Of a DNA stretch of 64,000 bases, positions 15,739 through 38,342 are shown one piece after another. Below the pieces are notes generated by a model. That model was not told where the DNA came from. It worked only from the letters and a program-made list of their open reading frames with translations, and did no database searches. The first letter of the stretch is position 1; the number at the start of each line of letters is the position of its first letter. Source of the stretch: Balanoglossus misakiensis (taxonomy: Eukaryota; Animalia; Hemichordata); contig CM082590.2 of NCBI GenBank assembly GCA_040954595.2, positions 2,852,001 through 2,916,000 on the forward strand, given 5' to 3'. The position numbers were made by a program, and so were the translations under genes.

Positions 15739-17212
15739 TTTTTTTTTTTTTTCATTTCAAAAATACAGGACAAAAACAAAAAAGTCGACAAAGACAAGAA
15801 AAAGAAAGAAACCACAAAAAGAACACTAATCAACGAACAAGTTGACAAAAGCTCCCCATTTTTCTAGATGTATCCCCTGTCTATCATTTGTAGTGGCTAC
15901 ATTATCTTCTATTTTATAAATAGATTTCACATATGATTTAAACTGAAGCATGTTTGGCAAAACATTCGGCACTTTACATTTAAAAATATAAGAACGTCCA
16001 ATCAAAAGAATGAAATTTGCAAGTTGACTACCCCCCTCATCTATATTACCCAGAATACAGTACATTGCACTTAACCTTAGTGTATTAAGAGTGTATTAAG
16101 TGTAACAGTAAAAAAACACTCTTTCACTGAAATCCAAAACTGACTAGTATAAATACAATCCCAAAAAAGATGGTAATAATCCTCTACAACATCTTTACAA
16201 AAAATACAAAGTGGGGAGTCAATTATTCGCCATTTGTAAAGCATGCGGTTTGAAGGCAAGATCTTCATTATTAGTTTGTACTGAAAATTCCAAAGCTTAA
16301 TATCATTTGTTAATTTGAAAGGAAGCGAAAACACAGTTTTTAAGGAAAATACTTCATCAAATACATCGTACCAATAACGTATTATGTGTGGAGAAAGCTC
16401 CTGTGGTGTTTGTAAATTCAGAACAAAAGTGTACATCTCTCTATTGAGTTTTTTACCAGACAAACAATTGGGATTTCGAAAATTAGGCTTACATACCAGT
16501 AGTTTGGATGAGTGTGAATTGTGTACAATATTTTTCCAATCAAGTGGTATTGCACATAATAACTGAAATTGTGTACAAATATTACCATATATTGTAGTAA
16601 ACTGCTCATAATTATAAAACTTACAATTAGCATCGATAAGATCATTAATAAAAATAACACCATTCCTTGAAAAGTTATTCCACAATATTGGCTTATCACT
16701 AATTCGTATCTCAGAATTATTGCAAATTAGTTCTTGGCATACATCGTCTTTATCAGATACTGTAGTGGTATTATACTGCAGCCATGCTGAATAAATTTGT
16801 CTTAAGAAAACAGAATTAATGGGGTTCAAAATATGAAAATCATCTTTTTTTAAATTGGCATAATACACTTGGGGCCCACTAAAACTGGAAAGAACAAATT
16901 TATACAATTTACTACAAAATAAACTATTGTTTCACATGATCCTCAAAAACCAGGCTGTCTTTAGCGTCAAATTAAAGGCAGGCAAATTTGTCAAATTGAG
17001 ACCCCCATTTACATATTAATTGTAGATGGTATTCCTCTTAATCTTGTCTCGCTTACCACCCCACAAAAAATTGAAAACTAAAGTTTCATACTTTTTAAAG
17101 AAGTCATTACCAGGAGATGGTAGAGACATGAAAAGATGAGTAAACTGTGAATTGACCAAGGATTTTATAATTGTTACTTTCCCATAAAAAGTGAGCCCCC
17201 TACCCTGCCATG
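15739..17212 (-). mobile_element. 5'-truncated non-LTR retrotransposon (L1/Tx1-type LINE), decayed ORF2 C-terminus with poly(A) tail and 14-bp TSD
   Basis: Minus-strand translation gives WQGRGLTFYGKVTIIKSL...FLWGGKRDKIKR...GGLNLTN...LKTAW, then ORF 16077-16907 with a zf-RVT-type CIFC...HLFWDC motif, then 15826-16065 ending EKWGAF. The T-run 15739-15752 is the poly(A). tataactcttcttt flanks both ends (15725-15738 and 17213-17226). Several frameshifts are present. Confidence 0.88.
16077..16907 (-). pseudogene. LINE ORF2 fragment (zinc-binding zf-RVT region downstream of the RT domain)
   Basis: ORF-track protein contains FQYKLIMKILPSN..LYKWRIIDSPLCIFCKDVVEDYYHLFWDC, typical of L1/Tx1 ORF2 C-termini. 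The frame is broken at both ends. Confidence 0.85.
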
Positions 17213-17424
17213 TATAACTCTTCTTTACACTAGTAATTTCTCACAATATTATAATGTGACTATACCATTGTTATTTGTATTTGATGTACCTGTTCCCAAT
17301 TGTGAAAAAATAACACTTAGTATACAGTAAATATGAACAAGTTGTTTGGTTTATAGGGAGGAACCAAGTTCGATTTCCTCAAAAAGGCAAAGAAGCCAAT
17401 TAAAACAGCGCACCAAACTGTTAA

Positions 17425-17452
17425 AGGGACAAAGTCTCTCTCTTTTTGCCTT
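17425..17452 (+). repeat. Left terminal inverted repeat of the Kolobok element (28 bp)
   Basis: agggacaaagtctctctctttttgcctt immediately follows TTAA. Confidence 0.93.
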
Positions 17453-17719
17453 CAAACTCCATTAAATACTTACTTCAAATCCATTATTATGACATATAAT
17501 GACCACACATTGCTTGAAGAATACCCTGAACTACGTTTTCGCCGTTTAGGCTAAAGACTGGATTTCTGCCTGGCCGTGCGCGCGATTTCGACCGACCGCC
17601 ATGTTGACCTCCCGCGAAGTGAAAAACTACGCATATTGCGGTTGCGTCACAATGTCAACACACACATGTGCTTCAGTCAATGACCTGGTCACGTACGTTC
17701 ATGACCCTGGATCACAACA

Positions 17720-20700
17720 ATGGAATGCGAGGTAAGTACATATACGAATACTTATAGAATTCTGTAAACTAGAGAAAATTAGTAGAGAATGTTTTTTTAT
17801 GAATGACATTGACATTGACAATGATAAAGAAGGTAAACTTTACGATGTCAGATGGAGATGCCGGTGATTTACCGTACATCGCGATGTTCATTTGTTTGTT
17901 TTGATTCTTGTTTTCACGTTCCGGGATTTATCTAAATTTTCGCTGAGTATTTACGGTTTCTTTAGACCGCTTTCTTGTTCCACGGTGCACTGATTTCTAT
18001 TTCAAATATGACGTGATCACCAGTTGTAAACTCCTAACGAAAATACACGTAAGCATAAGTACGAGTAGACGCCGGGTTGCACTGGGGTTGCACTACGGTG
18101 ACATCGACAGCTGGCAGCTAGCTGTAGATGCCGTAATGTACATGAACTAGACCGGATGCCGATCGGCCCCTATCGAGTACTCATTATCATCTGCTCACGC
18201 GCTAATGAACAGGGGGATTATTATTATGAATAGAGCAAGTGCATGCACTTGCACCGGGGAAAAATATGCATAGAATATTTCGAATTAAAAGTTTGCGAGT
18301 CATGCAAACCAAGTGATAAAAAATAGAACCAAGCAGTGGGCTTGAATTTGAATGGCATGCATTTACAGGGGATATGCACCATGCCCCATCCCTGTCCAGA
18401 AGAAACACAAACTTATTGATTTTCTTAGGGGAGAGATGTTACTGTTTGGGTTAGTGAGCAAATTTGATTATTTTGGTAGAGGGCAATCATTGTACACGTC
18501 TGGATTTTACATGCATATGAATAATGGATTTATGTTCACAAATTTCACCTAATTCATGAAATTGCATGATTTGCAATATAACTGCAATGTACAAAATTAT
18601 TTATTACAATTTTTCAATTTAAAATCTTATTTTTTTCCAGACAAGTGAAATAGATAACGCAGAAAGAGAATACAGCCCAAGTACAAATGAAAGAGGTAGA
18701 GGACAACGTGGTAGAAGTCGAGGCCGTGGTAGGGGTAGAGGTCGAGGTGGTGAGACTGAGAGAGGAGGAAGTGTTGCAGCTCGGGGGAGTACAAGTCGAG
18801 GCCGTGGTAGGGGTAGAGGTCGAGGTGGTGAGACTGAGAGAGGAGGAAGTGTTGCAGCTCGGGGGAGAACAAGCCGACGACGTGGAAGGGGTAGGAGGGG
18901 TGCAACATCCGTATCTGTTGGAGATGCTGTTGCCCAACTACAACAAAGGAGACAAAGAATGGAGGTAACTTTAAAAACATACATTTATTTCATACATATA
19001 TAAATAAAACAAAACAATAAAAATAGTGCTGTTTGTATCATTCAATGAAATTGTTAACAATCTGTCCACAGGCTGCTGTTGAACACATGAAAAACGATGA
19101 ACTGCAAAGAATGGTGATACAAATGGTTGATTGGCAGCCTGGTTTGATGTTTAATCTCATATTCCCAGTAACACTAGAACAGCAGGGATACCACCCACCC
19201 TCAGCAACTCAATCACCTGACTGGTGCATTTGCAGTCACTGTCAGCAGATGCCAACAGAAATGGAGAAAATGTGCTGCGATAAACAGCCACAAAACTGCA
19301 TCTCAAGATCACCGGTAAGTCAAGTAAGCTTTTGGATTTTAACTTGTACATGAATATAATTCTACAAGGACTCACTACTAAACCACTATGAACTGAAAAT
19401 TTGAACTCTAAGTTAAATTGAACACATTCAGTTCCACTTACCTGGCTACAGTCAAACTGTACTTCCTGTAACATTTTTGCAAAGTATATCCACAATGGTT
19501 TGCATATAGCAAAGCAAAGCTGGTTGTTTGTGTGTTTTTGTCAGAAGTTTTAGAGCCACAATATCATAACGTAGGGAGATAATCCAATGCAAACAGTTTG
19601 ACCTGAAGGGTTGTGAAAAGAGTGCATGTGTTGAGGACGGAACTTTGGAAGAACAGGTTACAAACTCAAAGTATACAGAAATATGTATTTGTAACACGAT
19701 ACAGGAATTTATAATTTGTGCATTATGCATATATTGAGACGTCTAGTGTTAGATTCTGCATATACCAATACAGAGGTCAGATAAACATTGAAATTTAAAG
19801 AGACACTGGAAACACACCACTATTATTCAAAACCTGAGATTGCTTTCTGAAGTCAAGAAAACAATGATATAAAAATTCCCTTTGGAAGTTGGTGTTGACA
19901 TCAACACAACTAAATATATATATAAAAAAAATTCTGTGAAGTACTGGTGGCCAGTGCAGCTTCATTGTCACATTTGGCATGGCAGTGTAAGGAAATCGTC
20001 GAGTAGTGTGCTATAGAAAACATCTTTGTTGACAAATTTACAAAATCTTCAGAACAAAACATCAATACAAACTGATTATTCTAAAGTTAAAGGGACAAAG
20101 TCTCTCTCTCGCTGCCCTTTTTCCATTAATTATGTTTGATACAAGACACTATTTATGTTAATTTACATGTGGATATGAATCAACGCTCAACCACACACAC
20201 CTTCCATCCCACTTGTATCATGCGAAGTAAAAACTTGCCCAGAATGAATAAATGGTAGAGACCGTTTATTTATTTTGGTGAGTTTTTCACTCTTGTGTCT
20301 ACAAGCAGGAATGGGAGGTGTGTTTGGTCGAATGTTGATTCACTATATATCCACATGTAGAATAACATGAACAATGTCTTGTATCAAGCAAAATCACTGG
20401 AAAAGGGCAGTGAGAGAGAGACTTTGTCCCTTTAAAAATGTTACATTTTGGCAACAAATGACAACAGCATGCCATCTATGTCACTGTCAGTAATAAAACT
20501 TCAGTGATTACAATATGAGTTGAAAGTCTTGTAAATATTTCATTAAATTTGCTTGTGGTTTACACTTTATGTGAATGAATGTAAATGTGGACAAAAAACT
20601 ACTGTAATCTTGAAGGAACAAATCCAGTGTTGCGGGCAAATGGGTCAGGAAATCGGTCCTGGATCTTCCAGACACAGCAACTATAGAGAGGTTTGACTGT

Positions 20701-21015
20701 AGGCTCTTCCTTTTTTTTTACATATTATGAACCTAACTTTTGTTATCTTTCTGTCACCAGGATTTCAATGTGCTTGTGCTCAATGAGGCTGTGTTGGCCT
20801 TGGCTAGGACCTACAGGCGAGAAATCTTTGCTACTGATGATGATGATGACAATAACACAGATAACCGACATGCTGCCTATAGGCAGTATGTCATGTGGCA
20901 GTATGGTCGTTTAGGTGCAGGAAACCGTGTGGTCATTCCCAGTTGCTGTGTCTGGGAGATCCGGGACCGATTTCCTGACCCATTCGCCCGCTACACTGGA
21001 TTTGTTCCTTCATGA
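17720..21015 (+). CDS. KolX accessory protein (P2X7 cytoplasmic-ballast-like Cys-rich domain, RG-rich N-terminus), 4 predicted exons, 277 aa
   Basis: Exons with GT-AG sites, all phase 0: 17720-17731 (MECE|gtaagt), 18641-18964 (RG-rich), 19072-19314 (..PDWCICSHCQQMPTEMEKMCCDKQPQNCISRSP), 20761-21015 (DFNVLVLN..NRHAAYRQYVMWQYGRLGAGNRVVIPSCCVWEIRDRFPDPFARYTGFVPS*). WC.C..C..M....E..CC and R..AY....W..G.LG...R..IPSC...IR..FP....Y.GF are hallmark P2X7-ballast/KolX motifs. The 12-bp first exon is the least certain. Confidence 0.87.
18714..18869 (+). repeat. 78-bp in-frame tandem duplication inside KolX exon 2 (26-aa RG-rich unit x2)
   Basis: aagtcgaggccgtggtaggggtagaggtcgaggtggtgagactgagagaggaggaagtgttgcagctcgggggag occurs twice in tandem. 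Confidence 0.9.
20091..20431. mobile_element. Palindromic non-autonomous Kolobok MITE (341 bp) in KolX intron 3
   Basis: TTAA on both sides (20087-20090, 20432-20435). Termini AGGGACAAAGTCTCTCTCT...AGAGAGAGACTTTGTCCCT are shared with the host element. Both arms resemble the host right end (33912-34097). Confidence 0.92.
20579..20682 (-). repeat. Inverted copy of the KolX 3' coding end and start of its 3' UTR, lying in the preceding intron
   Basis: 20611-20682 is the reverse complement of 20941-21012 with 4 mismatches in 72 bp. Weaker similarity extends 20579-20610 versus ~21013-21050. Confidence 0.9.
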
Positions 21016-21056
21016 TTACAATAGTTTTTTTTGTCTACATGTATTTACATATGGAA

Positions 21057-24000
21057 TCATTCAGGCAATTCTCTGGTTCGTCTCGATATTTTTTCTTTTA
21101 CTAGATCAGTTGTTGGTGGTGGTGGTATTTGAGCCAGATGCATGGATATTCTCCTAGGATCTGTAGTTTCTAGTTCTCTCTTTTTCTTCATTCCTTCTCT
21201 ATCTTGAAGTCTCTTCTGCAGAATATCTTTTATCAGTGGCCTGATGTAGGGATAGGACTTGGCTTCTTTTACTGGAGCGGCGGACCATCTGTTGCTCTTT
21301 TTGTTGAATTTTCTGTGGTACCTTTGATTGAAACGCAGTGATCAAAAACTTAGTTTGTGCAATCATTTTTACTTCACTTACTGTATTGTTTTTATATGCA
21401 ACAATACCACATGCTGTATGCATGCATTTCTTTTTTACCACGATTTTACACCTTTCAATTGTTATTTTGAATTTTGTTTTTAAACTGCTTGTCTTTCACA
21501 GAATGACATTTTGTTTTCTGCAAAAGCTACATTTTAAAAGTGATTACTGTGGTTATATTAAATGTGTTTTGGCATTCATTTACATTTGAAGATTCTGCAA
21601 TAAAGTGTTGTTTGGACTCACATTTCTTGACCATCTTTAGTTTTCCTTGTTTCCCTTTCTAGGTGCGCATTGTGGTCTAAGGCGGCCAAGATATTTCTGG
21701 CCCTGTATGCTGGTGGTGAGTAAGCATACCTCTTGGAAGCGTACATTAGAATGTGTTGTTGGAAAGATTCCAATTCAGCCGTCGATCTGCAGAAGAACAG
21801 ATAATAAAACTTCTGTTCAGTCTATTTGTCTTCAAATTGGGTAAGACTGCTGTCAAAGGCAACCAAGTTCATGGCCACAAAAGCCTGTATATGAGACTTA
21901 CATAAATAAGTATTTGTTGTCATACTACACAATTTGGGTCATGATACCATCTACAGTGACAAAAAAATATTTTACAACCTATAAAACAAGGATTTTGTTT
22001 AGTGACCCTTTTACTTTTAAATGTCAACTACCGGTAACTCATTTCCAAGCTAATATTGACAGGTTTCTCGCAAAAATTAGCATTGATTTTGGCAACAAAA
22101 TGCCACAGGAAATGCCAGAGTATGTATGGCCCTATTTATTGGTGTCTTTTGGCCAAATGACCAATTTTGTTACCTGAAATTCAGAAGATAGTGGATCTTC
22201 TTTAGGAATGCTTTGTCAAACACGACATTTCTCAATGCCAAATGGGCTGCACCGTTTTTCTTTAAGTACTTCCTTTCAGCGTCCCCAGTATCAGCAAGTG
22301 GTCCATGGTCGCATTCCATGGCATTGCTGTTGCCATAGTTCACATGCCATGTGTGTTCATCTACCACGTGATGTATAACACCACCCCAAATCTCCTGCAC
22401 AACAACATACAGTCTCTATATCACGATTTTTGATTATATCAGTAAAGTTTACAATCCCATAAATCACTATTGCAATAACATGAACTATGACATGTTCAAT
22501 GCACAGCAAAACAGCAGCAACCAATCCAATTGAATGTTAAAACATGTCTCAATATTTATTATCAAATATTAATTTTTAAGATTACCCTAAGAAGTCTCTA
22601 TAGTATCACACATTTTAACATCTAGGCTAGCTGATGATAAGTAATACTTACCAGAAACTTGTCCATATCTGATGCTTTTTGACAACAATACCAAAAGTGG
22701 TTCACAATGTGGGTCACCCATTTCAGCAGTGGTTTGCACTCTTTGTTTTGTGCAGCCTTAAAAAAACACAGAATACACTCATGATTGTGATGTCCGGGGA
22801 GGGGTTATTGACAGTCGACAACGACGGAGTTCCACAGAAGTGATGTTTATTGAATGACAACCACGCGGGAACTAACAGTTACAGGAAATCACGTATACAG
22901 ACCATGTGACAATCACGTGATCATGACAATACTATCACATCTCCTCAACTTTAGAAGAAAACTTGTACTTTAAGTTTACAACTCGCTTTGGAAAGTATGA
23001 AATTTGCCAACACTGTCAAATTGTAATGCTTTGTGAATGATCATGTTCTAACAAACGAAAACAAACAGAACCTTAACCTTAACAAGAACTTGAGAACTTC
23101 ATAACTAGGAAAATACAAATCTCCAAGAGAAAATTTGCTCTACAGAAACTCATTCCATAATGTTTGTGTACAGTCTTATGTCAATATAATCTATCCTTCT
23201 GGCATGCAATAGTCTTTGTGCCAAGGAGGTTTAGATTTTATTCTTGTTGAGCGTCTCACATCAGTACTATTGGGGTTTACATTTGTCTTAGGTGAATTTG
23301 TCACTGGCATTGTTGGAGGAACATTTACAATCGTTTCCAACGATGCTGTACCAGTAGGTGAAACAGGACTAGGACATGCTGGTCCAGTTGATTTCTGACT
23401 AGAACAGACGGGTTATACTGGCAAGTTATCCAGGTTGTTATGTGTAGACAAATCATGGATATGGGGGTTACAGGATGGAACACCATTTTGAACCCTTTGA
23501 GGTTGTTCATATGTCAAATGTTTGGAGTTCCATTCAGTGCCCTGGAAGGAAAATTCTGGATATTCCTCAACATATTTCTTTACATGTCCAGTGGACCTTC
23601 TTTTTACACCTTTGGAGTTTTCCAATACTAACGCACCTCCATCTTTCTGGATGACTTTGTATGGTTCTGTCTCGAAATTGGGAGTGAGTTTGTTTTGCCT
23701 AAATGCTTGCTGGAGCAAAACAGTATCACCTTCCCTGATATCTGAGGAAGTGGCATGTCTCCTGTTGTCGGCATAGAACTTTTGTTTCATTTTCATTCTG
23801 TTGTTTCTTTCTCTCATTTTGATTTGCCAATCAGACTCATTGATTGTTTGGGATGGAATTCTCAGTCTAGGAATTTTGTCCCTAAACTCTCTTCCCATCA
23901 GAGCCATAGCAGGAGATATGCCTGTCACAGTATGGGGTGTATTTCTATATTCAAATAGAAAATGTGTCAAATCTTTGTACCAACTTTTCTTTTGCAATTT

Positions 24001-27000
24001 AGCAATTCGTACAGACTTCAAAATTATTTCATTCAGCCTCTCAACACTTCCATTGCTCTGAGGCCAGTATGGAATGGAATATTCATGATCAATACCTAAG
24101 TAATCAAGGAAACCTTCAAACTCGGCTGAGGTAAAAGGTGGACCATTGTCTGATTTGACACAGTAAGGCAACCCATGTGTAAGAAACATAGCTTCCATGG
24201 CTTTTATGACATGGGCAGCATCTGTTTTCTTTAACAAAACTACTTCAGGCCATCTAGAGTATAAATCAGTTACCACTAGTAATTTCTCACCATCACATAC
24301 ATCCAAAAGATCAACTGCTAAATCGAACCATGGTCCTTCAGGTAACTGTGTGGGTAATAATGGCTCTGGGTTTGGCCTGGCACTGACCAATTGACATGGA
24401 TGACAGGATCGTATCAGTTTTTCCACATCCCTGTCCATTCCTGGCCACCAAACTCTGTCACGTAAACGAGCCTTTGTCCTCACAATTCCCTGATGACCCT
24501 GGTGTGCAATTTTCAAGATTTTTCTTTGCAAAACTTGAGGAACAACCAATCTGTTACCACGCATGATCAATCTGCCATACAACCATAATTCGTCTTTCAC
24601 ATGCCAATAGGGTGAAGACTTCAATTTTGACCAATTTGCAGAGGTAATACACTTTTCAACCAATTGCAAGCTCTGGTCTTTTGCAGATTCTCTCTCAATA
24701 TCACGTGGGGTGATAGCAGATGGCATAGCCTCTAAAACAACACTACATGCAAAATCTTCAGTCTCTCTACAATAGTTGTCAGATGGTTCGTCCACGGGCA
24801 ATCTACTCAACATGTCCGCATAATTATTCTTTCCCTTGATATGGGTGATATGATAATCAAATTTTTGCATATATAACAGCCATCTCTCAATTCTAGCTGA
24901 AGGGGGCCTGGAGTTAGGGCTGAATACTTTCAATAAAGGCTTATGGTCAGTTCTGACCTCAAAATGACTGCCTAGCAGAAACTGCTGAAGTTTCTCACAT
25001 GCCCATTTAACTCCAAGCGCCTCTCGCTCAAACTGAGAGTACCTTGACTCAACATGTGTAAGCTTTCTGCTAACATAGTACACTGGTTGATATGAACCAT
25101 TACTTTGCATTTGTTCAAGGATTGCTCCAACACCAACGGGCGATGCATCAGAAGTGACTCGAGTTTTAGCACCCTGCTTGAAATAAGCCATGAATGGACT
25201 TGTGGTCAATTTATGTTTGATGAGATTGAATACTTTCTCATGCTTGGGAAGCCATTTCCACTTTGCATCTTTGCGAGTCAAATCCCACAGTGGGCTTGTC
25301 ACTGTTGCAAATTTATCGACATATTTTGAGCAAAATTGAGCCAGCCCCAAGAAACTTCTCAATTCTGATTTGTCAGTTGGCGTTCGAGCTTTTACAATAG
25401 CTTTGACCTTCTCATCAGTGAGTTTCATACCCTGGGCCGTCATCAAGTGACCCATGAATATCATACTGTCTCCTAGCTTACATTTTGTAAAGTTCAGCGT
25501 TAAACCATGCTCACTAAAACGCTTGATCACTTTCCCAACTCTGGCATGCAGCTGCTCATAATTTTCAGCTACTACTCTAATATCATCATGCATGTTGTGG
25601 GCACCCTCACAGCCCTTCAAAACCTGGCTAATTAGATTTTGAAACTTTTCAGTCGCCATGTTCACACCAAAAACTAAACGCTTGTAGCGATACAAAGAGT
25701 TGGGCCCTGAAAAGGTTGTAATATCCCTGCTCTTTTCATCGAGCTCAATTTGATGGAAAGCCATATTCATATCAAGCTTGCAAAATACCTTGGCCCCTGA
25801 AATTTCCTCTAGCGTTTCATCCATGGTGGGAACAGGGTGTCTTTCCCTAACAATGGCTTGATTTGCTTTTCTCATGTCCAGACATAGTCTGATATCCCCA
25901 TCAGGCTTTTGTACTGTTACAAGGGGGTTGACCCAAGAGGTCGGACCCGAAACCTTCTCTATTACTCCCAGCTTTTGAAGCTCGTTGAGTTTTTTCAACA
26001 ACTTTAGCACGGCGGTTGAAAGGAATTCGCCGGTACTGGGCTATGGGTTTGACACTCTCATCAATATGCAAATGGAGCTTGTAGCCCTTTAACTTACCCA
26101 ACCCATTAAATACCTCAGGATATTTCCTCCGCAATTCTGCAAGAATTGGCGAAGAATTATCAGCAGATATTGAATTTATCGTGTACAGATTCACATTTCC
26201 AACTCTCAACATATCTAAATTCTCAGAAGTACTCCGACTCAACAAAATCGGTTGATCAGCCTTGATCACTATAAAATCAGCAATACATTTCTTTTTAGTA
26301 GGCGCTTCAACATGTAAGGCACATTTACCCAATATATCTAAAGGTTTACTAGAACCATAGGTAAACACTTTATTGTTACAATTTCGAACTTTTACACCAC
26401 GCTTTTCAGCAAGTCTGCGAAATTGTCTTTCACCAATGAGATTACATGTAGCACCACTGTCGATGATAACCGGCACGTGTTGATTCTCGATCTGAATACC
26501 TGTATCAGTGAGGTCCTTCCCACTGGAAGCACGGAAAGCAGCATTGAAAGCATAGTACGCTTTCTCCTCGTCAGTCTCGACGTCTGCATGGCCACCATCG
26601 GCGTTTGCATCAGTAGTCGTCTGAGCTACCTTGTGTGTACCGCGACCATCACCACGCGTACGGCCACGTCCACGTGCGCTGCGGTTACCACCACTGCCTC
26701 GACTGTTGCCATTTTCACTGTCTTTAGACGGACAGTCTTCCCACTTAGCACGACAGTCTGCAGCTCTGTGTCCCGGTTTTTGACATCGGAAACACCGGTC
26801 GGATTTTTGTTCGGCATTGCGAGAACTACCACTTGTACTGGCGCGACATTCACGTTGCATGTGACCTTTCCTTCCACAACGGAAACAGGCTAAGTCCGCC
26901 ATTTTGTTTTTGGCGCGCGTACGTTTACCGCCAATATTGACTGCATTTGCACTCACAGCTTGAGTACCAGACACCAAAACTAGTGCATCTTTGTCGTGAT

Positions 27001-30000
27001 ACGACCGTATGATTTGTAGTAGTTTGGTAGTGTCCAAATTCTTTTCACGATACAGCTTGCTTTTTAGCACCTTGTCGCTGATGTAGAGCAAGACACGATC
27101 TCTTATCTGGTTGTCTTTTTCCGTCTCGGGAAAATCACAGTCTTTCAGTAGGTTCTTGAGACGTATTACGTAGCTGTCGACCGTCTCCCCGGACGTGGGA
27201 GTTGCGCTGTAAAACTTCTGTCTCGCCATAGGAACGTTTTTCTGCAGTTGAAAGTGTTTATCCAAACATGCTATCAACGTTGCGCAGTTTGTGACGTCAC
27301 CAGTTTCATCTTCAGATTTAGTGCTAACAATGTCTCTGATGCCCGCTCCAGCCATGTGCAAAAGTAAGGCACGCTTCTGCGCATTATTTGAAACACCAGA
27401 AGCTGCTACGAACAGTTCAAATTCCTGAAGCCAACGCTCCCACCTTTGCTGAAGAGCCTCCGGTTCGCCTTCACAGTCGAATCCCGCCACTCCTGGCAGT
27501 CCGGACAGCGTTACGGGTGTAGACATTTTCATGCACTCAAATCACGGCTAAAAAGTCACCAAATCTCGTAAAGGTTGCTTGCGTATGTTCTTCGATAGTT
27601 AATTTAGACAACTAAATCCTCGTCGCCATTTATGTGATGTCCGGGGAGGGGTTATTGACAGTCGACAACGACGGAGTTCCACAGAAGTGATGTTTATTGA
27701 ATGACAACCACGCGGGAACTAACAGTTACAGGAAATCACGTATACAGACCATGTGACAATCACGTGATCATGACAATACTATCACAATGATCTGATATAA
27801 ACTGATGGTTCATAACTATTCACCATAGACCTGAACTTGTTTGTGACATTTACTGATGCAAATAACAACTGCACAATTTGAATATTGCCATAACTATTTT
27901 CAAAGGTAGTTTGACACCCACCCCACCCAAAATGATAGAAGGATCAGTTAGTAACATTCTATACCCTTACATTTTTATGTGTCAGTGTCACACATATTTA
28001 GAAGATAAATGAAAACTGAATACAAGAATAAAAGTTTGTCTAACCTTTATGATCTTCTTTGACAAGTTCTTGGCAGCATGCCAAATGTCATGAGAATGTT
28101 TTATGTCTGGGTGATCGTCTCCTATAAGAGTGGGTAAATGTGATTACAAATGGAGCTTCAAAATGACAGTGTTATGATTGCCAAATACATTATCTCAGAA
28201 AAACAAAATCAACATTGACCTGTATAACAGCTTTGCTTTTGGCATTTCAAAGCAACATATAACCCAAGTTAAGATGGGTCCCTAGGATCTTTTTGCTCGT
28301 TGCTATGGGCCTTTATAGGACACTACACTCAATTTTGATCGAAACCGTTATGAACGTCCGACAAGGGGCTTGTAACTAGTTAAAAATACGCACGATTGTG
28401 TGCACACCCCCTGTCCGAGTATGGTTACGGCAGCTACCGCCCGGCCATAGGCCGCCACGCTAATACGGCAAAGCAGCAGTCACCGATAGCGTGCGCGTCC
28501 TGTAACCACAGTAACTGGATCGAACGCTAAAAATCCAATGTTTTGTACACAGAGATTTTGTACCGTTCACGAAAATCCCTAAGGCTTTTTTCATAGGCGA
28601 CGTAGGCCAGCCAAATTTGACCTGCTTGTTGAGAATGCACTTCCGCATAGTGTGACGGATCGTTTTTTCGGTTTTCGTCGTGCTAAGAAGCGATACCGGT
28701 GGAAGAGTGCGTCCAAAAACACCCACAATCGATGACTTTTTCAGGTGTGGTACGGGTATGCTGAAATCGTAGGATACAACGATAATATTCGAAAACAAAA
28801 TCCGTCACGATCTTCCCTGGTTCAAGCAACTAATGAATACGTATCAAGTTCGTTTTTGAGGTCACGGAATAAAAAGCCTTAGGCTTTTGAAATTTGACCT
28901 AGCTAATTTGCATATCAATGGCGTCAGGGGGCGCGCGCTCACAATCGTGCAGATTTTCAACTAGTTACCAGCCCCTTGTTAGACTCTGAAAACGGCTTAG
29001 TCCAAATCGGGGTGTAATGTCCTATAAAGGCCCATAGCAACGGGAAAAAAGATCCTAGGGACCCATCTTAAAATCATAAAATTACACTTACTCATCAGAG
29101 CTGTAATCTGCATGTGGGCATCTGTTACGACTTCTTTGACATTTACACCTTTCTCCTGAAGCTGGTTTAGACTTTTAACAAGGCAGGCCTTTTCCATGTT
29201 TGTTGACTTCTTCTCTGTTTCTCTTTTGTCCATGGTTATTATCGACAGAATTTTCTTGGTGGTTTCCTCCATCACAGTATAGGTGCAATATTGCGCACAA
29301 AAACCCGGGGAATCCATTCGCCCATCACCTGAGACATAATCAAGTAAATATGTCAGTCAAATTATACATAAGTATGCATAAGTGAGAACATTTCCAATTC
29401 AATGATTTTACAATGAGTATGAAATGATGCAAATGAGGAAGTAAATGCCACCAAATAATAACTATTGTATTCTCTTTTCTAAATCAGCAGAATAGAGTGT
29501 GTAAGTATAAACTTTTAGACATAAATTACAAGTGCATTGGCAGACATGTGATGGATAATCAGTGGGGTGAGCCAATCAGATTAGGTGCGTGTCATTAACA
29601 ATGAAGCTAAAAACTTACCCAGTAAAACAAGTTCTTGGCCATCAAATGAATCAATGATGTCTTGTTGTTGTCGTATCCAAAATTCATCAAGACATGGTAT
29701 TAGATAAGCTTTCTGAATTCTATTGTAAGTATTCTGGGAGCAAATTCTGAGTGACAGAATGCTTGCCAAAAAATTAATTTTGGCATAATTATTACCAGAC
29801 AATAGAATGGCAGCTGCTGTGAAGAGATCACCACTATGAAGTCTCCTGTTCAAAATTGGTTGTGAACACCATTCGTACTCAAGGTGACCAGCTGAGCATT
29901 CCTGAAAAAAAAAAGTTTAAAGATTCATGCTTATTTGATCATTTCATGTTGATTTCTCCAAGACACGATAAAACAGATGTTAATACCGATAACTTTGTAA

Positions 30001-30388
30001 TTTCAGTTGACTATTGTTTTTTATTATAAACCTAAAGGAACAATGTGCACCCACATAGGATTATAACTAGAGTTTCCTGTTCATCTAAATAATACTGGCA
30101 TAGTGATTGTCCATACAATGCACACTACAGTTGGTATAGTTTAACAATAATTGTCAAGAATATACCATATTTAGTTCACACTCACCCACTTTAGATATAA
30201 AGCTGAGCCAACAAACTTTGAAGTAGAGGATATCAATCCACTGCAAGACTTCAATGCACAGACTTGCCTAATAGATTTTTTGCCAAGGGCCAGAAGCTGG
30301 TTCAAAAAAACAGACATGTTGTAGAGTCACCAAGGAGGCTTTCCCCATCTTCTTCTGTGACAACTCTCTGCAGACCCGGTGATGGTGT

Positions 30389-30431
<43 letters not shown>

Positions 30432-33400
30432 CCACCGTCACTTTCAATATCGTCGTCACCAATGGCAGGAACCACCTGCACGCCATTAGTTCTGAGAAAT
30501 GGACAAAAAATCCTAACAATGCTCATGACTTGTCCATCAGAGTTTGTCAGTCAGCTGTTAGTACAAATGTTGTAAGTTGATGTTTCATTCATAAAAGAAA
30601 ATTTATCATATATATGAATTTTAGCGTCCAACACTTAGGCTTTTTTTAACCATGAGGATATTTTGCCTTCCATTTGTTGTGTACCCATCCAATAAGGAAC
30701 TTTGATGATAGTGATAAATGCGCACTTACATTATAGAAATATCAAAGATGGGCTCATAGTCATAATCATCATCGTCACATAGGTTCATGTCTTCCTCTTT
30801 GTCTTCCTCAGAAATATCAATGCTCAACCTGGTAGTAATAAAACCAAGGAATTAATCTGAATAGTGGGACAATGCTGCTCACTAAAAATACATATAGTCA
30901 CTCATAAGCACAAAAAAGAAAGAAAACATTTCCCATGAATTTAAGTACAAGCAAATGTTCTGACACACGTGATGCATGTCATGAAACTGATTTTCCCAAC
31001 AAATTTAAATTTAGTGTAACAGGAGAAAAGAAGCAATCGAAAAGGCTTGCTCAAGCAAGGGATACATGCATGCCGTATATGACAATAGAATAAGGAAAAC
31101 TTACTCAAATGGATTGATGAAAGACTCAGACAAATTTCTTGGAAATCTTACACGGCCGCTGGATAAAAACATGACAAAATAGGCACACATGAGACGGCAA
31201 TATGTACTGAACTAATTTACAGCTGTGAACTAAATATAACACACATGAAAATTGAACTCTGAAACAAAGTGACAGGGGCACACAGGGACAGCAGCATCAC
31301 TGCTTATTTTTACAGGTTCCTCTCTATCTTGGTTTCACACAAGTAAATTTAGGGTGATTGGTAAACATTTGCCATTTTGCTTTCTAAGAAATATTTTCAT
31401 GTTGATAGCTACACAGAATAACTTATTCACACAAGCATAAGCAAGGGAGTTAGAAATTAGTACATTTACATGTATGTAAAGCAGTCGCTCCTGCTTTTGT
31501 CCTAAAGCAGGAGATTAATGTTTATCACAAAAGGTACAAAAGAGGGGGGAAAGCCACATTTCACTATAAAAGTTTACCTAACTACAGTTTATCTTCAGAT
31601 TATTAGAATCTCACACTCCCAAGGACCTGGGATCACATTTCTCACAAGAGTTGGGGATTTTCTGTCCCACACGAGCCGCAGGCTCGTGTGGGACAGAATA
31701 TCCCCGACGAGTGTGAGAAATATGATCCCAGGTCCTTGGTGTGTGAGATTCTTTTTCTCACACGGTCACAAATTAGCCAAGTTCGTTAAAAACATTGAAT
31801 AAATGACTCTGGAATTGTTGTCTGGGGGCACGTTGTAGTCTCTGTGCCTGTAATACACATCGCGCCATTGGATAACATTTAGTGCGCGTAGCGACAGAAC
31901 ACTTTGTCAACCAATCAGCACTCACGTCATATACAGCTTTCTATTCAGTGAGATTGTGAGAACAATTTGTTCCCACACTCTGTTCTCACACTCCCAGCGT
32001 ACGGGGAGTGTAAGAAAAGATAGTGTCATACCTTTCACTTTGTACTGGCTGTGATGGGCCTTCTGTAGATTCCATAGGTTTCTCTTGTGATGATTCTCCT
32101 ATCTCCTGAACATCTATCTCTGCAATTCCAGAGATGGAAGAAACCCTGTACAAAGAAAAAAAAGACTAAAATTTGATACATGACAAACTAGGTCTGCACA
32201 AACGTTGTAGGTTCCAGTTCCCCCTAATCCCCCAACCAGTAAGCAGTGAAAAACCTATGTTTGCTGGATTAAAACCATAGACGTGAATGTCTTGGTCAAC
32301 ACACTGAATAAATTGTATAGGATGATTTTGGTTGTTTATTGGAGGGCAAATGTCAGGTATACTTCGCCATTGTTATGTTGATTATTGTCACCTGAGAGTT
32401 TGAGCAGAGGCTTTTCCTCATACTACAGATTGTGGCTAGAAGCATTGAAATTATCATGTAATGTAAAAAAACAGTGCTTAAACACCTACCTGACTGATGA
32501 TATTTCTGATGCAACTAATTCTTCTAAATTTTTTTCGATATCACAAAGATGGCCATTTCCTGGCGTTGATGTCATAGGAAAAGTTTGGGTGGCTTGTCCT
32601 TGATCATCACGTTGCCTATAAATTTTAAGAAACAAATATATACTTTTAGGTATTCCCATCTATCACACAGATAACTATGTGGAATGCAACATTTCATTGT
32701 TTCATTTCTATAAATTATATTACGGACACAATTACTTTTCATGAGCCATAAAAACATGTCACCTCTTTAAAACAATATACATCATGTATACTGCAAGAGC
32801 CCCATCAAATATGAAAATCTATTGTGTACTATACAAAGCTCAAAGTATCATGATCAAAATTTATTTGGTACCTAGTTTCCATAGACGGTGCAAATACTTG
32901 CAGTGTTTCTTGGCCACTTGGAGATGATGCAGGCCTGGTAAATTCTGCATCTGTTGTTGCTGTAACTTGATGTTCATAATACCTGTCCACACAAATAATA
33001 AGACACAATGAACCTTTTTTGCCTTTACAATGGCTTGTTTACGTAGCCAATTTCTGTCTTTAGAATGGATTACACACAGCCATAATTTGCCTCAGAGGAC
33101 ATGTTACAGACACGTAAGGTGAGAATAAGATAACTACGAGAAAATAGCCAAATTTTTCTTCAGTTCATATACAGCTCAAGAAATGTACACAACTGGCTAT
33201 AACAAAACGGAAGTTGTAGCAGAACAAAGAACAACCAAATTCCGCTATAAGCATATTGTCTCGTATGTTCGATAACAGTAATACATGTAGATTGTCCGGA
33301 GGAAAAAAAAGAAAAAAAAAAAAAATTGCAGTACCGTACAATTTATCTCGCATAGTCATACATTGATACAAACGGTCCAGCGTACTACATACAACTGCTG

Positions 33401-33805
33401 GTCGAGGGCGAGGTATGCGCTGGGCAAAATCACTAAGTGAAATACGACTTGAAACAGCACATTTAGAATTACATTGAGATGATGCTCGCAGTGATTCTGT
33501 GAGACACAGATTCTAAATTCATGTACACAATTCATGCCGTATCTTTGGCTATGGAGTACGTACACAGTGAATGCACGAATATGTACTTACCGGTCGATCA
33601 GTACCTTTGCGACCTGGCGGTTCGTTTCCAATACCAAGGAGCGTTTGATTTCATTCCAACGATGAATTTCCGAGAAAATGTTTATCTGACCTACTTGTTT
33701 CAGCAATTGTTTACGTTTTTTTGCCGAAGCAGTGGTTTGTGGGCGGCCACGAGCACGTTTACGTTTACCACTGCTACTGGGAACAGACGCCAAAGCATCC
33801 GCCAT
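21057..33805 (-). CDS. Kolobok DDE transposase, 14 predicted exons, ~790 aa, one single-base frameshift in exon 7
   Basis: Exons (GT-AG, phases compatible): 33591-33805, 32872-32982, 32490-32615, 32032-32145, 31105-31158, 30730-30828, 30186-30491, 29619-29901, 29092-29328, 28045-28121, 22652-22756, 22174-22394, 21622-21786, 21057-21321. Motifs: CALKSC...W.CSAGH (Zn), GDGRMDSPGFCAQYCTY, VVTDAH, HSHDIWH, W..HIVNHFWYCC, HHVVDEHTW...CDHGPL (H2CH-like), STAELESFQ..ILMYASKR, LAALDHN, and C-terminal PPPPTTDLV....SR. The frame breaks at the A7 run 30304-30310. Confidence 0.88.
22786..22939 (-). repeat. 3' LTR of the Gypsy element (154 bp)
   Basis: Identical to 27633-27786. On the minus strand it is preceded by the purine-rich tract AAAGTTGAGGAGA (PPT-like). 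Confidence 0.97.
23413..26010 (-). CDS. pol: Gypsy Pol: reverse transcriptase, RNase H, integrase
   Basis: RT motifs IRLCLDMRKAN, LDMNMAFHQ, RLVFGV and MHDD. RNase H motifs DASPVGVGA, YSQFEREAL and TDHKPL. Integrase H-H-C-C plus DDE (AVDLL, SDNGPPF, NGSVER). An in-frame tail continues past the TAA to 23191. Confidence 0.95.
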   Translation of the reverse strand: MLKLLKKLNELQKLGVIEKVSGPTSWVNPLVTVQKPDGDIRLCLDMRKANQAIVRERHPVPTMDETLEEISGAKVFCKLDMNMAFHQIELDEKSRDITTFSGPNSLYRYKRLVFGVNMATEKFQNLISQVLKGCEGAHNMHDDIRVVAENYEQLHARVGKVIKRFSEHGLTLNFTKCKLGDSMIFMGHLMTAQGMKLTDEKVKAIVKARTPTDKSELRSFLGLAQFCSKYVDKFATVTSPLWDLTRKDAKWKWLPKHEKVFNLIKHKLTTSPFMAYFKQGAKTRVTSDASPVGVGAILEQMQSNGSYQPVYYVSRKLTHVESRYSQFEREALGVKWACEKLQQFLLGSHFEVRTDHKPLLKVFSPNSRPPSARIERWLLYMQKFDYHITHIKGKNNYADMLSRLPVDEPSDNYCRETEDFACSVVLEAMPSAITPRDIERESAKDQSLQLVEKCITSANWSKLKSSPYWHVKDELWLYGRLIMRGNRLVVPQVLQRKILKIAHQGHQGIVRTKARLRDRVWWPGMDRDVEKLIRSCHPCQLVSARPNPEPLLPTQLPEGPWFDLAVDLLDVCDGEKLLVVTDLYSRWPEVVLLKKTDAAHVIKAMEAMFLTHGLPYCVKSDNGPPFTSAEFEGFLDYLGIDHEYSIPYWPQSNGSVERLNEIILKSVRIAKLQKKSWYKDLTHFLFEYRNTPHTVTGISPAMALMGREFRDKIPRLRIPSQTINESDWQIKMRERNNRMKMKQKFYADNRRHATSSDIREGDTVLLQQAFRQNKLTPNFETEPYKVIQKDGGALVLENSKGVKRRSTGHVKKYVEEYPEFSFQGTEWNSKHLTYEQPQRVQNGVPSCNPHIHDLSTHNNLDNLPV
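25901..27532 (-). CDS. gag: Gypsy Gag-protease (two CCHC zinc knuckles, aspartic protease) running into the RT N-terminus
   Basis: Motifs CFRCGRKGHMQREC, CFRCQKPGHRAADC, IIDSGATCN and ..VFNGLGKLKG..RRIPF. The true reading continues into pol across a frameshift at 25990-25995. Confidence 0.93.
   Translation of the reverse strand: MKMSTPVTLSGLPGVAGFDCEGEPEALQQRWERWLQEFELFVAASGVSNNAQKRALLLHMAGAGIRDIVSTKSEDETGDVTNCATLIACLDKHFQLQKNVPMARQKFYSATPTSGETVDSYVIRLKNLLKDCDFPETEKDNQIRDRVLLYISDKVLKSKLYREKNLDTTKLLQIIRSYHDKDALVLVSGTQAVSANAVNIGGKRTRAKNKMADLACFRCGRKGHMQRECRASTSGSSRNAEQKSDRCFRCQKPGHRAADCRAKWEDCPSKDSENGNSRGSGGNRSARGRGRTRGDGRGTHKVAQTTTDANADGGHADVETDEEKAYYAFNAAFRASSGKDLTDTGIQIENQHVPVIIDSGATCNLIGERQFRRLAEKRGVKVRNCNNKVFTYGSSKPLDILGKCALHVEAPTKKKCIADFIVIKADQPILLSRSTSENLDMLRVGNVNLYTINSISADNSSPILAELRRKYPEVFNGLGKLKGYKLHLHIDESVKPIAQYRRIPFNRRAKVVEKTQRASKAGSNREGFGSDLLGQPPCNSTKA
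27616..27628 (-). promoter_or_regulatory. Primer-binding site TGGCGACGAGGAT, complementary to the 3' end of tRNA-Ser(GCU)
   Basis: It lies 4 nt downstream of the 5' LTR on the minus strand. It matches the ...AUCCUCGUCGCCA end of metazoan tRNA-Ser(GCU) as I recall it. Confidence 0.8.
27633..27786 (-). repeat. 5' LTR of the Gypsy element (154 bp)
   Basis: tgtgatgtccgggg...caatactatcaca is a direct repeat of 22786-22939 and is adjacent to the PBS. Confidence 0.97.
28273..29067. mobile_element. Second non-autonomous TTAA-targeting TIR element (795 bp; Kolobok-like GA...TC termini) in transposase intron 9
   Basis: TTAA at 28269-28272 and 29068-29071. TIRs begin GATGGGTCCCTAGGATCTTTTT and stay imperfectly complementary for ~140 bp (to ...cccctg / cagggg...). 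No credible ORF. Confidence 0.88.
30389..30431. repeat. (CAT)n microsatellite encoding poly-Asp in transposase exon 7
   Basis: About 14 CAT units, read as GAT codons on the minus strand. Confidence 0.9.
31600..32022. mobile_element. Hairpin-ended non-autonomous element (possibly Crypton-like) in transposase intron 4
   Basis: ~148-bp imperfect palindrome at 31605-31752 centred on acacgagc-cgca-ggctcgtgtg. ttttctcacac just inside the hairpin is inverted at the far end (gtgtaagaaaag, ~32008-32019). Boundaries are approximate and the family assignment is tentative. Confidence 0.6.
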
Positions 33806-34069
33806 GACTGTCGCTACAGCTATAATTATATGTATGACGTTTCATTTTGTGTATATACCCTTGCACATGCGCACATTGGTAATGATCGAAGCCCGGCCCG
33901 CGTCCGCGCTCGAATAAATGGTAAAGAACGATTATTCATTTTGGTGATTTTTTTACTCTCGTGTCTACAAGCGGGATGGAACTTGTGTGTGGTCGAACGT
34001 TGATTCACTATATATCAACATTTAAAATAACATACACAGTGTCTTGAATGAATCAAAATTAATGGAAAA

Positions 34070-34097
34070 AAGGCAAAAAGAGAGAGACTTTGTCCCT
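34070..34097 (-). repeat. Right terminal inverted repeat of the Kolobok element (28 bp)
   Basis: aaggcaaaaagagagagactttgtccct is immediately followed by TTAA. Confidence 0.93.
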
Positions 34098-34425
34098 TTA
34101 AGTCAAAGGCTGATATTTCTCACTGTGTGTGACCAGGGTATCATTTTAAACACAGACTGGACTTTGACTACTGTGTCCAATGGAAAAAATACATCAGCAT
34201 CTATGTCTGCAAAAAGGTGTCAAAACTGACATATCTTATCATGTATGTCATCAAACTCAAAGGATAATATCTTCATTTCATGTGACCTGCCTGGTTAAAG
34301 TTTACCGCCAACATTTCACCATGCTTTACCCACCCACCCATGGCACAGTGTGTCAAATCCAATATTTGGTTCGATGAATGAACCATGAAAGTTTCCGAAT
34401 TGGTACTACCCGAAAACTGCATGGC

Positions 34426-35861: not shown

Positions 35862-36192
35862 AGGGACAAAGTGTCTCTCTCGCTGCCCTTTTTACCATTA
35901 ATTATGTTTGATACAAGACATCGTTTATGTTGGCTGTATAGTGAATCAATGTTCGACCAAACACAACTTCCACCCCACTTGTACACACAAGAATGAAAAA
36001 ACTCGCCAAAATGAATAATCGGTGTTTACCATTTATTCATTTTTGCGAGATTTTTACTCTCAGATTCTACAAACGGGATGAAAGTTGTTGGTTGAATGTT
36101 GATTCACTATATAGCCACATGTAGAATAACATAAATGGGTTCATGTATCAAACTTAATTGAACAATGGTGGCGAAAGAGAGACTTTGCCCCT
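35862..36192. mobile_element. Second copy of the palindromic Kolobok MITE (331 bp), outside the autonomous element
   Basis: TTAA flanks (35858-35861, 36193-36196). Termini agggacaaagtgtctctctcgctgccc...gaaagagagactttgcccct. It is homologous along its length to 20091-20431. Confidence 0.88.
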
Positions 36193-38203: not shown

Positions 38204-38342
38204 ATATTAATATAATATTTATAACTTATGTAGCACATTAAATCTCAACATGCTTTAAAGTTGTCCCATGGTAATTTGACCTAGGTCGTTGGACCTTACT
38301 ATTCCATTCAACTCCCTGGGGAGCAAACAACATCTCACCATC

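What the first reader, a model, noticed from the sequence alone, without database searches (positions are those of the whole stretch)
17425..34097. Complete intron-rich two-gene Kolobok transposon (DDE transposase + P2X7-ballast-like KolX) invisible to the ORF track
Seen: TTAA-flanked perfect 28-bp TIRs 16.7 kb apart enclose 18 exons with canonical splice sites. These assemble into a ~790-aa DDE transposase (minus strand) and a 277-aa Cys-rich protein (plus strand), tail to tail. Known: Kolobok elements target TTAA, have RR..YY ends and carry a second gene, KolX, related to the cytoplasmic ballast of the P2X7 receptor; its role in transposition is not established as far as I know. Inference: this is a young, nearly intact autonomous copy (~10 kb without nested insertions), probably of an undescribed family, and its N-terminal domains differ from the THAP-type prototype.
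Basis: partly seen in the sequence, partly recalled or inferred. Interest (0 to 1): 0.8.

Follow-up and report, generated by a model that had tools for sequence, protein, structure and literature searches.

The report
Dead Kolobok transposon with ribbon-helix-helix head
This is a full-length but broken cut-and-paste jumping gene of the known Kolobok type in an animal genome; its transposase lacks the usual THAP DNA-binding domain and starts instead with a small unnamed module that is predicted to pair into a bacterial-style ribbon-helix-helix fold and that also heads some host zinc-finger proteins.

Summary
The anatomy is real: TTAA-flanked perfect 28-bp TIRs (17425-34097), a 14-exon DDE transposase gene (minus strand) and a convergent 4-exon, 277-aa KolX gene (P2RX7_C, all seven zinc cysteines). 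This is the published Kol0-type Kolobok layout; the scan has noted such elements on other DNA. It is not an intact autonomous copy. Exon 7 is one base short, so translation stops at 302 aa, before the catalytic core. A read-derived contig has the same break. A 5-kb Gypsy element also sits in sense in intron 10. Relatives are open across the break and share the introns (7 of 7 testable in L004) and the tail-to-tail KolX. The more interesting part is the N-terminus. There is no THAP; exon 1 encodes an AT-hook-like motif plus a ~35-aa module with no Pfam match. It is conserved in hemichordate and mollusc transposases and heads three C2H2 zinc-finger proteins. A two-copy prediction passed its controls (0.43 vs 0.01), with contacts that I read as ribbon-helix-helix. 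Profile comparison with Arc and Mnt was not significant, and DNA binding is untested. Verdict: new variant of a known kind, dead copy; interest 0.5.

The parts
17421..17424 (.). left TTAA target-site duplication
   Evidence: sequence
17425..17452 (+). left TIR, 28 bp, perfect
   Evidence: I12
17720..17731 (+). KolX exon 1 (ATG, 4 codons; the least certain exon)
   Evidence: GT donor, frame fits; relative L004 also has a short first coding exon, by eye
18641..18964 (+). KolX exon 2, RG-rich basic tail with a 78-bp tandem duplication
   Evidence: RG-rich N-termini in homologs
19072..19314 (+). KolX exon 3, six of the seven ballast zinc cysteines (C164, C166, C169, C180, C181, C188)
   Evidence: Pfam P2RX7_C E 7.6e-9; alignment
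20091..20431 (.). 341-bp TTAA-flanked Kolobok MITE in KolX intron 3; both arms 81-85% like the element's right end; first 19 TIR bases identical
   Evidence: 374 and 308 distinct loose-end flanks at 20087 in X1 and X2
20582..20682 (-). inverted 90%-identical copy of 20941-21043 (KolX 3' end) inside KolX intron 3
20761..21015 (+). KolX exon 4 (C255/C256; R229, H230, R261 match P2X7 GDP ligands R546, H547, R578); stop at 21013-21015
   Evidence: Pfam E 8.3e-21; PDB P2X7 513-591 E 4e-13
21057..21321 (-). transposase exon 14 with stop
21622..21786 (-). transposase exon 13, catalytic E (E656 in STAELESF)
   Evidence: Data S5 rows end on this motif
22174..22394 (-). transposase exon 12, HHxxxEH...CxH zinc-finger motif of the insertion domain
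22652..22756 (-). transposase exon 11
22786..27786 (-). nested Gypsy LTR retrotransposon in intron 10: identical 154-bp TG..CA LTRs, ATGAT target duplication, gag-protease and RT-RNaseH-integrase in different frames; same sense as the transposase gene
28045..28121 (-). transposase exon 10, DxxH motif (D527-H530)
28273..29067 (.). 795-bp TTAA-flanked non-autonomous element with GA..TC ends (Kolobok-type, another family) in intron 9
   Evidence: high depth in runs
29092..29328 (-). transposase exon 9, catalytic D438 (GDGRMDSPG) and D506 (VTDAH)
29619..29901 (-). transposase exon 8
   Evidence: 47-65% identity to 18 homologs
30186..30491 (-). transposase exon 7: acidic (GAT)n tract, then a one-base frame break near 30304-30310
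30730..30828 (-). transposase exon 6
31105..31158 (-). transposase exon 5 (SESFINPF motif, conserved)
31604..32011 (.). repetitive palindromic insertion in intron 4 (boundaries approximate, class not determined)
32032..32145 (-). transposase exon 4
32490..32615 (-). transposase exon 3
32872..32982 (-). transposase exon 2
33591..33805 (-). transposase exon 1: RGRP AT-hook-like motif, basic helix, and the strand-helix-helix module (aa 38-70) predicted to dimerise
34070..34097 (-). right TIR, 28 bp, perfect
34098..34101 (.). right TTAA target-site duplication

Best explanation
This is a full-length Kol0-type Kolobok DNA transposon whose transposase gene is broken by a one-base frameshift, so it likely cannot move itself, and whose exon 1 encodes a THAP-replacing module predicted to form a ribbon-helix-helix (RHH) dimer that likely binds the element's ends. 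How an intact family member would work: promoters just inside each TIR (inferred from CpG-rich ends) drive two convergent spliced genes. The ~792-aa transposase would dimerise and grip its ends through the AT-hook-like motif and the RHH-like head (predicted). It would cut at the TIR/TTAA borders with its D438-D506-E656 RNase H core (catalytic motif shown; fold shown for a 42%-identical homolog; chemistry inferred from the IS256/Mutator, hAT and P relatives) and paste into a new TTAA. KolX is a zinc-bound ballast-fold protein with an RG-rich basic tail. Most likely (about 0.45) it is a nuclear helper that binds nucleic acid and assists the transpososome, possibly sensing GDP/GTP. Transposase supplied by intact copies would also move the hundreds of MITEs that share the first 19 TIR bases. 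This copy: shown to be frameshifted (302-aa product) and to hold four nested insertions; inferred to be further silenced by the sense LTR poly(A) signal and by nonsense-mediated decay. Its perfect TIRs leave it movable in trans, and KolX may still be made.
For: TIR/TSD. Gene models and break. Break present in the X1/X2 contig. Relatives L001, L004 and L005 are open across the site. Transposase 38-60% identical over 430-790 aa to hemichordate and mollusc proteins. The model of homolog P0014 matches ISCth4 (E 1.8e-6), Hermes (1.3e-4) and P element (2.7e-4) transposases. Convergent KolX in 3 of the 4 loci (of 13 fetched) with DNA beyond the last transposase exon (L004, L008, L010; not L001). Introns 7-13 at the same place and phase in L004 (7 of 7, by eye). 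N-terminal module: 11 hits among 1.84 billion representatives; present in 8 of the 18 transposase homologs and in L001 and L006; no Cys pair or AVPT box in the first 300 aa. Two-copy prediction: score 0.43, best of 3 controls 0.01, runs agree in 100% of contacts, pLDDT at least 81. The mark was reached by 21 of 30 proteins solved as pairs of one chain and 0 of 23 single chains; for eukaryotes by 17 of 29 (animals 7 of 16) and 0 of 30 single chains. Contacts 41-41', 42-40' (antiparallel ribbon on the twofold), 62/63/65/66 to the partner's 41-44, 46/49/50/53 to the partner's 63-70, and 69-69' are the Arc/MetJ arrangement (my reading, from recalled RHH architecture). CpG observed/expected is 1.2-1.4 in the three stretches tested at the two ends against 0.22-0.28 in four intron stretches.
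Against: The RHH label rests on one predicted contact map that I could not view in 3D or search. RHH dimers are common among solved structures, so the pass may come from memory, and only 1 of 7 eukaryotic pairs without an older solved relative passed in the tool's calibration. hhalign against P22 Arc and Mnt is not significant (probability 0.1%, E 0.4-0.6; only the turn and helix B fall in register). The AlphaFold monomer has pTM 0.39 and shows no strand. No DNA binding, expression, excision or empty site was observed. No intact family copy was seen (no genome held). The role of KolX is inference only; two of five GDP ligands (R574, K583) are not kept.
Confidence: 0.72

Rival explanations
1. 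The copy is autonomous: a programmed -1 ribosomal frameshift at the U-run in exon 7 makes a short DNA-binding repressor and a long transposase, as in bacterial IS1/IS3.
For: The required shift is -1. The X1/X2 allele reads as a U_UUU_UUA heptamer in the upstream frame (heptamer known from retroviral gag-pol, recalled). The short product would keep the N-terminal module.
Against: Three relatives are open across the site with no slippery sequence, and homolog proteins run through it in frame. No stimulatory structure downstream (z -0.16). The window allele has a stop in the A-site. A stop in exon 7 of 14 would be expected to trigger decay. The Gypsy insertion is a second lesion.
Confidence: 0.04
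2. The N-terminal module is only a dimerisation or protein-interaction domain (like the SCAN, BTB or ZAD heads of zinc-finger proteins); end recognition is done elsewhere, for example by KolX or the Cys/His region at aa 320-350.
For: In P0019, P0103 and P0104 it sits at the N-terminus of C2H2 arrays, where interaction domains usually sit. The prediction shows self-association only.
Against: It occupies the place of THAP, the DNA-binding domain. It follows an invariant GRP motif and a basic helix. Its predicted ribbon has polar outward positions (Q40, N42; R/K/S and N/Y/T in homologs).
Confidence: 0.25
3. The break is an artefact of assembly or of my exon model, and the transposase is intact.
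For: It lies at a homopolymer. The window differs from the X1 contigs at about 0.2% of sites, and in 3 coding sites that homologs can polarise the reads carry the conserved state. The library type of X1/X2 is not on record.
Against: The X1 and X2 contigs cover the site without an indel. Homology is continuous on both sides of the break, within one exon in relatives. An alternative acceptor would drop a conserved helix.
Confidence: 0.06
4. KolX supplies in trans the guanine-nucleotide cofactor site that P element transposase carries in cis.
For: R229, H230 and R261 match P2X7 R546, H547 and R578. The homolog's transposase fold resembles the P element transposase, which needs GTP (recalled).
Against: R574 and K583 are not kept, as Rump et al. 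report for non-mammalian ballast domains. Many Kolobok lineages have no KolX. No binding data.
Confidence: 0.2

Closest known systems
Kolobok superfamily, Kol0 (Kolobok0) lineage, type Kolobok-1_XT (Kojima and Bao 2022, PMC9587614; seen: abstract, passages, section 10, supplement 3 parts 1 and 103-106, supplement 2 part 7)
   Same: TTAA duplication, RR..YY ends, DDE transposase with DxxH and the inner zinc finger, no CCHC finger after the first D, second gene KolX with the P2X7 ballast fold.
   Different: No THAP domain; a different N-terminal module; 13 + 3 introns; this copy is frameshifted.
Repbase Kolobok-1_PiPr (row Kolobok_1_PiPr_1p of Data S5; core only)
   Same: By eye the closest row seen: shares CAQYC, DKR.T, TDAH.QI.ALM, WH.AKNL.KKI..AAQ.KE, IVNHFW.CC, FRSTA.LESFQ.
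   Different: Only the D-to-E core is given, so its N-terminus, introns and KolX could not be compared. No tree was built with it.
Xenopus XKol transposases (PMC6004289; passages seen)
   Same: DDE and H2CH motifs; MITEs mobilised in trans.
   Different: They carry THAP (C2CH, PWF, AVPTIF), which the paper calls usual for Kolobok; absent here and in the 6 homologs checked.
P2X7 cytoplasmic ballast / Nanor / ZCD proteins (PDB 6U9V, 9E3M; Rump et al. 2020, PMC7016195, passages seen)
   Same: Seven zinc cysteines; R546, H547 and R578 equivalents.
   Different: Free-standing, transposon-borne, with an RG-rich tail; R574 and K583 not kept.
Ribbon-helix-helix repressors (P22 Arc, Mnt; MetJ, CopG recalled); plant TCP domain (RHH-like, per bioRxiv 2022.11.22.517060, passages seen)
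   Same: Strand-helix-turn-helix order, a G-x-x-S/T-N-x-E turn in homologs, and a predicted intertwined dimer with an antiparallel ribbon on the twofold.
   Different: No significant profile similarity; preceded by an AT-hook-like motif; found in animal transposases and C2H2 zinc-finger proteins; DNA binding untested.

Membership tests
Kolobok superfamily | TTAA target-site duplication | tested here: met
   TTAA at 17421-24 and 34098-101; no empty site seen
Kolobok superfamily | 5'-RR..YY-3' termini with TIRs (unlike piggyBac) | tested here: met
   AG...CT, 28-bp perfect TIR; rule from PMC9587614
Kolobok superfamily | DDE transposase with C/DxxH motif | tested here: met
   D438, D506, D527xxH530, E656 in the exons; homolog model matches ISCth4, Hermes and P; Pfam gives only sub-threshold MULE/Mutator/ISL3 hits on homologs
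Kolobok superfamily | zinc finger between second D and E (all lineages but Kolobok1) | tested here: met
   HHVVDEH...ECDH in exon 12
Kolobok superfamily | N-terminal THAP domain (usual, not universal) | tested here: not met
   no CxxC in the first 300 aa, no AVPT box, no Pfam THAP in the window exons scanned or in 6 homologs
Kol0 lineage | second gene KolX with ballast fold and 7 cysteines | tested here: met
Kol0 lineage | no CCHC finger after the first D and no fused or accessory nuclease (excludes KolobokP, E, D, H) | tested here: met
   against rows
Kol0 lineage | transposase falls in the Kol0 clade of a tree | tested here: inconclusive
Autonomous Kolobok copy | intact transposase reading frame | tested here: not met
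Autonomous Kolobok copy | other full-length copies, empty sites, spliced transcripts | not testable with these tools
   no genome held; contigs only
Ribbon-helix-helix domain | homodimer with a two-stranded antiparallel ribbon on the twofold and helix B packed beneath | tested here: met
   predicted only: (0.43 vs control 0.01; contacts 41-41', 42-40', 62-66 to 41'-44', 69-69'); may reflect likeness to solved RHH dimers
Ribbon-helix-helix domain | profile or fold similarity to known RHH proteins | tested here: inconclusive
   hhalign with Arc and Mnt not significant; monomer model of low confidence
Ribbon-helix-helix domain | sequence-specific DNA binding through the ribbon | not testable with these tools
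   needs EMSA or a structure

The most novel reading that the evidence does not exclude
A clade of animal Kol0 Kolobok transposases has swapped THAP for an unnamed ribbon-helix-helix DNA-binding head, a fold class listed as absent from mammalian transcription factors. Encoded as a portable first exon, this head has been shuffled onto host C2H2 zinc-finger genes (scallop, limpet and an unnamed protein), giving animals a family of RHH-zinc-finger regulators that could dimerise with, and poison or guide, the transposase.
Probability: 0.4. Interest if true: 0.72.

Novelty: new variant of a known kind. Interest (0 to 1): 0.5.

Why it matters
What it adds is (1) a well-supported 18-exon gene model, with introns shared by relatives, for a lineage that NCBI annotates as 'uncharacterized protein' plus 'P2X purinoceptor 7-like', and (2) an unnamed N-terminal module that replaces THAP, is predicted to be an RHH dimer, and is shared with host zinc-finger proteins. 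If confirmed, that would be an RHH DNA-binding fold in animals and another case of exchange between transposases and transcription factors. It can be tested with a 50-residue peptide. My searches found no paper naming it; Repbase Reports, most subscription journals and the Fig. S6 image were not visible.

Full report
OBSERVATION. The element runs from 17425 to 34097 (16,673 bp). Its ends are perfect 28-bp inverted repeats, each flanked by TTAA; 30 shuffles of the region gave at most 22 nt of perfect inverted repeat. The ends read AG...CT, the RR..YY rule that separates Kolobok from piggyBac (PMC9587614, passages). I found 14 exons on the minus strand and 4 on the plus strand, with 16 of 16 introns GT-AG. 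The two stop codons are 41 bp apart. Four insertions are nested inside: a 5.0-kb Gypsy element with identical 154-bp LTRs and an ATGAT duplication, two TTAA-flanked non-autonomous elements, and a palindromic repeat. About 10.1 kb is left without them.

THE TRANSPOSASE. Exon 8 found 18 relatives among 48 candidates, best from the hemichordates Glandiceps and Ptychodera, then bivalves and Littorina. Read through with an X at one break, the 792-aa protein aligns with them at 38-60% for the long matches. It has D438 (GDGRMDSPG), D506, D527xxH530, an HH..H..C.H finger and E656. It lacks the CCHC finger of KolobokP/E/D (section 10; rows). By eye the closest row of Data S5 is Kolobok_1_PiPr_1p, in the company of Kolobok-1_XT, -1_BF, -2_DR and -1_NV. 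Pfam gives only sub-threshold MULE, Mutator or ISL3 hits on 3 of 6 homologs. A model of the 42%-identical P0014 (mean pLDDT 54, core 75-93) matches the ISCth4, Hermes and P element transposases.

THE COPY IS BROKEN. The exons sum to 2378 nt and the frame breaks in exon 7 at a homopolymer run (30304-30310), giving 302 aa. The contigs of runs X1 and X2 (one sample, possibly the source of the window) span the site with one substitution and no indel, so that allele is also out of frame and would stop at 319 aa. Relatives L001, L004 and L005 are open across the site, have no slippery sequence and end the exon at the same W|GT. The RNA downstream is not unusually structured (z -0.16). I therefore read the break as a mutation, not recoding. 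The Gypsy element is in sense, has AATAAA in its LTR and ends 29 nt before the exon-11 acceptor; I infer that it further disturbs the transcript. The window's KolX stop at 21013 is an Arg codon in X1/X2, which would add three codons and give an end like that of most homologs. Long X1 pieces inside the element differ from the window by about 0.2%. Short, 99%-alike pieces in a second sample (X3/X4) show the element in another haplotype; one contig includes 10 TIR bases at the right border, too few to count as bridging.

KOLX. Exons 3 and 4 hit Pfam P2RX7_C above its cut-off, and exon 4 hits solved P2X7 residues 513-591. 74 relatives among 182 candidates carry the same family. All seven zinc cysteines are present. 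Of the five GDP ligands named by Rump et al. (PMC7016195, passages), R546, H547 and R578 are kept and R574 and K583 are not, as they report for acorn worm and sea urchin. The N-terminus is RG-rich, as in most homologs aligned. The KolX-ballast link is already published; the search for Kolobok with KolX, or with ballast, returned only that paper, so I found no functional study.

CONSERVED ARCHITECTURE. Thirteen related loci were found in metagenome contigs. Of the four with DNA beyond the last transposase exon, three (L004, L008, L010) carry a convergent KolX; L001 shows none in 924 bp. In L004 introns 7-13 match in place and phase (7 of 7, by eye), the KolX introns look shared, and the locus ends in CCCCT-TTAA. 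Intron 1 is shared with L001, and 5 of the 11 hits end exactly at that junction. This supports the gene model without RNA data. Both ends of the element are CpG-rich (observed/expected 1.2-1.4 against 0.22-0.28 in introns), as expected of promoters. The first AATAAA after each stop lies beyond the other gene's last exon (21599 plus, 20274 minus), so the transcripts may overlap at their 3' ends (inference).

THE N-TERMINAL MODULE. Kolobok transposases usually have THAP (PMC6004289, passages). This one has no Cys pair in its first 300 residues and no AVPT box, and 6 of 6 homologs checked have no Cys pair in their first 150 residues and no such box. Exon 1 encodes RGRP, a basic helix, then QINIF-helix-turn-helix. 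The module has 11 relatives among 1.84 billion representatives. It occurs in 8 of the 18 transposase homologs and in L001 and L006. It also heads three C2H2 zinc-finger proteins: P0019 (unnamed), P0103 (scallop) and P0104 (limpet). The monomer model shows helices 28-37, 43-56 and 62-70 (pLDDT 73, pTM 0.39). Two copies of residues 24-71 scored 0.43 against a best control of 0.01, with 100% agreement of contacts between runs and pLDDT at least 81. The mark was reached by 21 of 30 proteins solved as pairs of one chain and 0 of 23 single chains; for eukaryotes by 17 of 29 (animals 7 of 16), by 1 of 7 without an older solved relative, and by 0 of 30 single chains. The contacts put residues 40-43 antiparallel to their mates around I41, helix B under that ribbon and against helix B', and helix A against helix B'. 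From recalled Arc/MetJ structures this is the ribbon-helix-helix dimer. Against this: hhalign with Arc and Mnt is not significant, although both align the turn and helix B in register, and the pass may come from the many solved RHH dimers. I put the RHH fold at about 0.65 and binding of the element's ends at about 0.5. Plant-TFClass lists RHH among DNA-binding classes absent from mammals and present in plant TCP factors (bioRxiv 2022.11.22.517060, passages). Searches (listings only) found no paper linking RHH or this module to Kolobok.

MECHANISM. Shown: anatomy, catalytic motifs, the break, the KolX fold family, the shared layout. Predicted: the dimeric RHH-like head and the RNase H core of a homolog. 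Inferred: end binding by the head, cut-and-paste into TTAA, mobilisation of the MITEs (19 shared TIR bases, arms 81-85% like the right end; 374 flanks in X1), a helper role for KolX, and transcript decay in this copy.

VERDICT. A real Kol0-type Kolobok, a dead copy, in a marine-invertebrate-like genome (nearest proteins are hemichordate; host not identified). The two-gene system is known, and the scan has noted similar elements in at least 5 other genomes. The THAP-less, RHH-like head shared with host zinc-finger proteins makes it a new variant. Interest 0.5.

Noticed in passing
window 22786-27786 (-): Gypsy LTR retrotransposon with identical 154-bp LTRs, ATGAT duplication, gag-protease (546 aa frame) and RT-RNaseH-integrase (875 aa frame) in different frames, the change falling near the start of RT; the X1 contig over 25284-27662 has no gap, so the reads agree.
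   Followed up: partly
window 17453-22470 versus 22640-34000: Contig depth in X1 and X2 is about five times lower over the left part of the element (~350 and ~1000) than over the Gypsy and the right part (~1750 and ~2000-5600). The tool warns that depth is not copy number; unexplained (segmental duplication with a break in intron 11, or library bias).
   Followed up: no
window 20582-20682 and 20941-21043: A 101-bp inverted copy (90% identical) of the KolX 3' end inside KolX intron 3 could fold back on exon 4 in the pre-mRNA (duplex -168 kcal/mol); not seen in L004, L008 or L010.
   Followed up: partly
window 20091-20431 and 35862-36192: Two related Kolobok MITEs (76% identical), each built of two inverted copies of a sequence like the element's right end; a family with hundreds of flanks in X1/X2.
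   Followed up: partly
window 17425-17439 and 34083-34097: The first 15 TIR bases form a near-palindrome (AGGGAC-AAA-GTCTCT, 5 of 6 pairs), a possible site for a dimeric binder; noticed after the fact and not tested.
   Followed up: no
window 17885-33248: Of 21 listed window-versus-read differences inside the element (picked from the best-supported rows), only 5 are transitions and 12 are A/C or G/T transversions; at three coding sites the reads carry the residue seen in homologs.
   Followed up: partly
window 16077-17240 (-): 3' part of a degraded LINE (zf-RVT, E 1.8e-7) next to the left end.
   Followed up: partly
window 1-13924, 38300-50250, 53200-63400: Long satellite arrays (about 131-bp, about 190-bp and about 116-bp units): the element lies in repeat-rich, probably heterochromatic DNA.
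   Followed up: no
proteins P0019, P0103, P0104: C2H2 zinc-finger proteins whose N-terminus is the same module as transposase exon 1; direction of exchange unknown.
   Followed up: partly
window 18711-18866: 78-bp tandem duplication in the RG-rich KolX exon; one X2 contig lacks one unit, so the tail length may vary.
   Followed up: no
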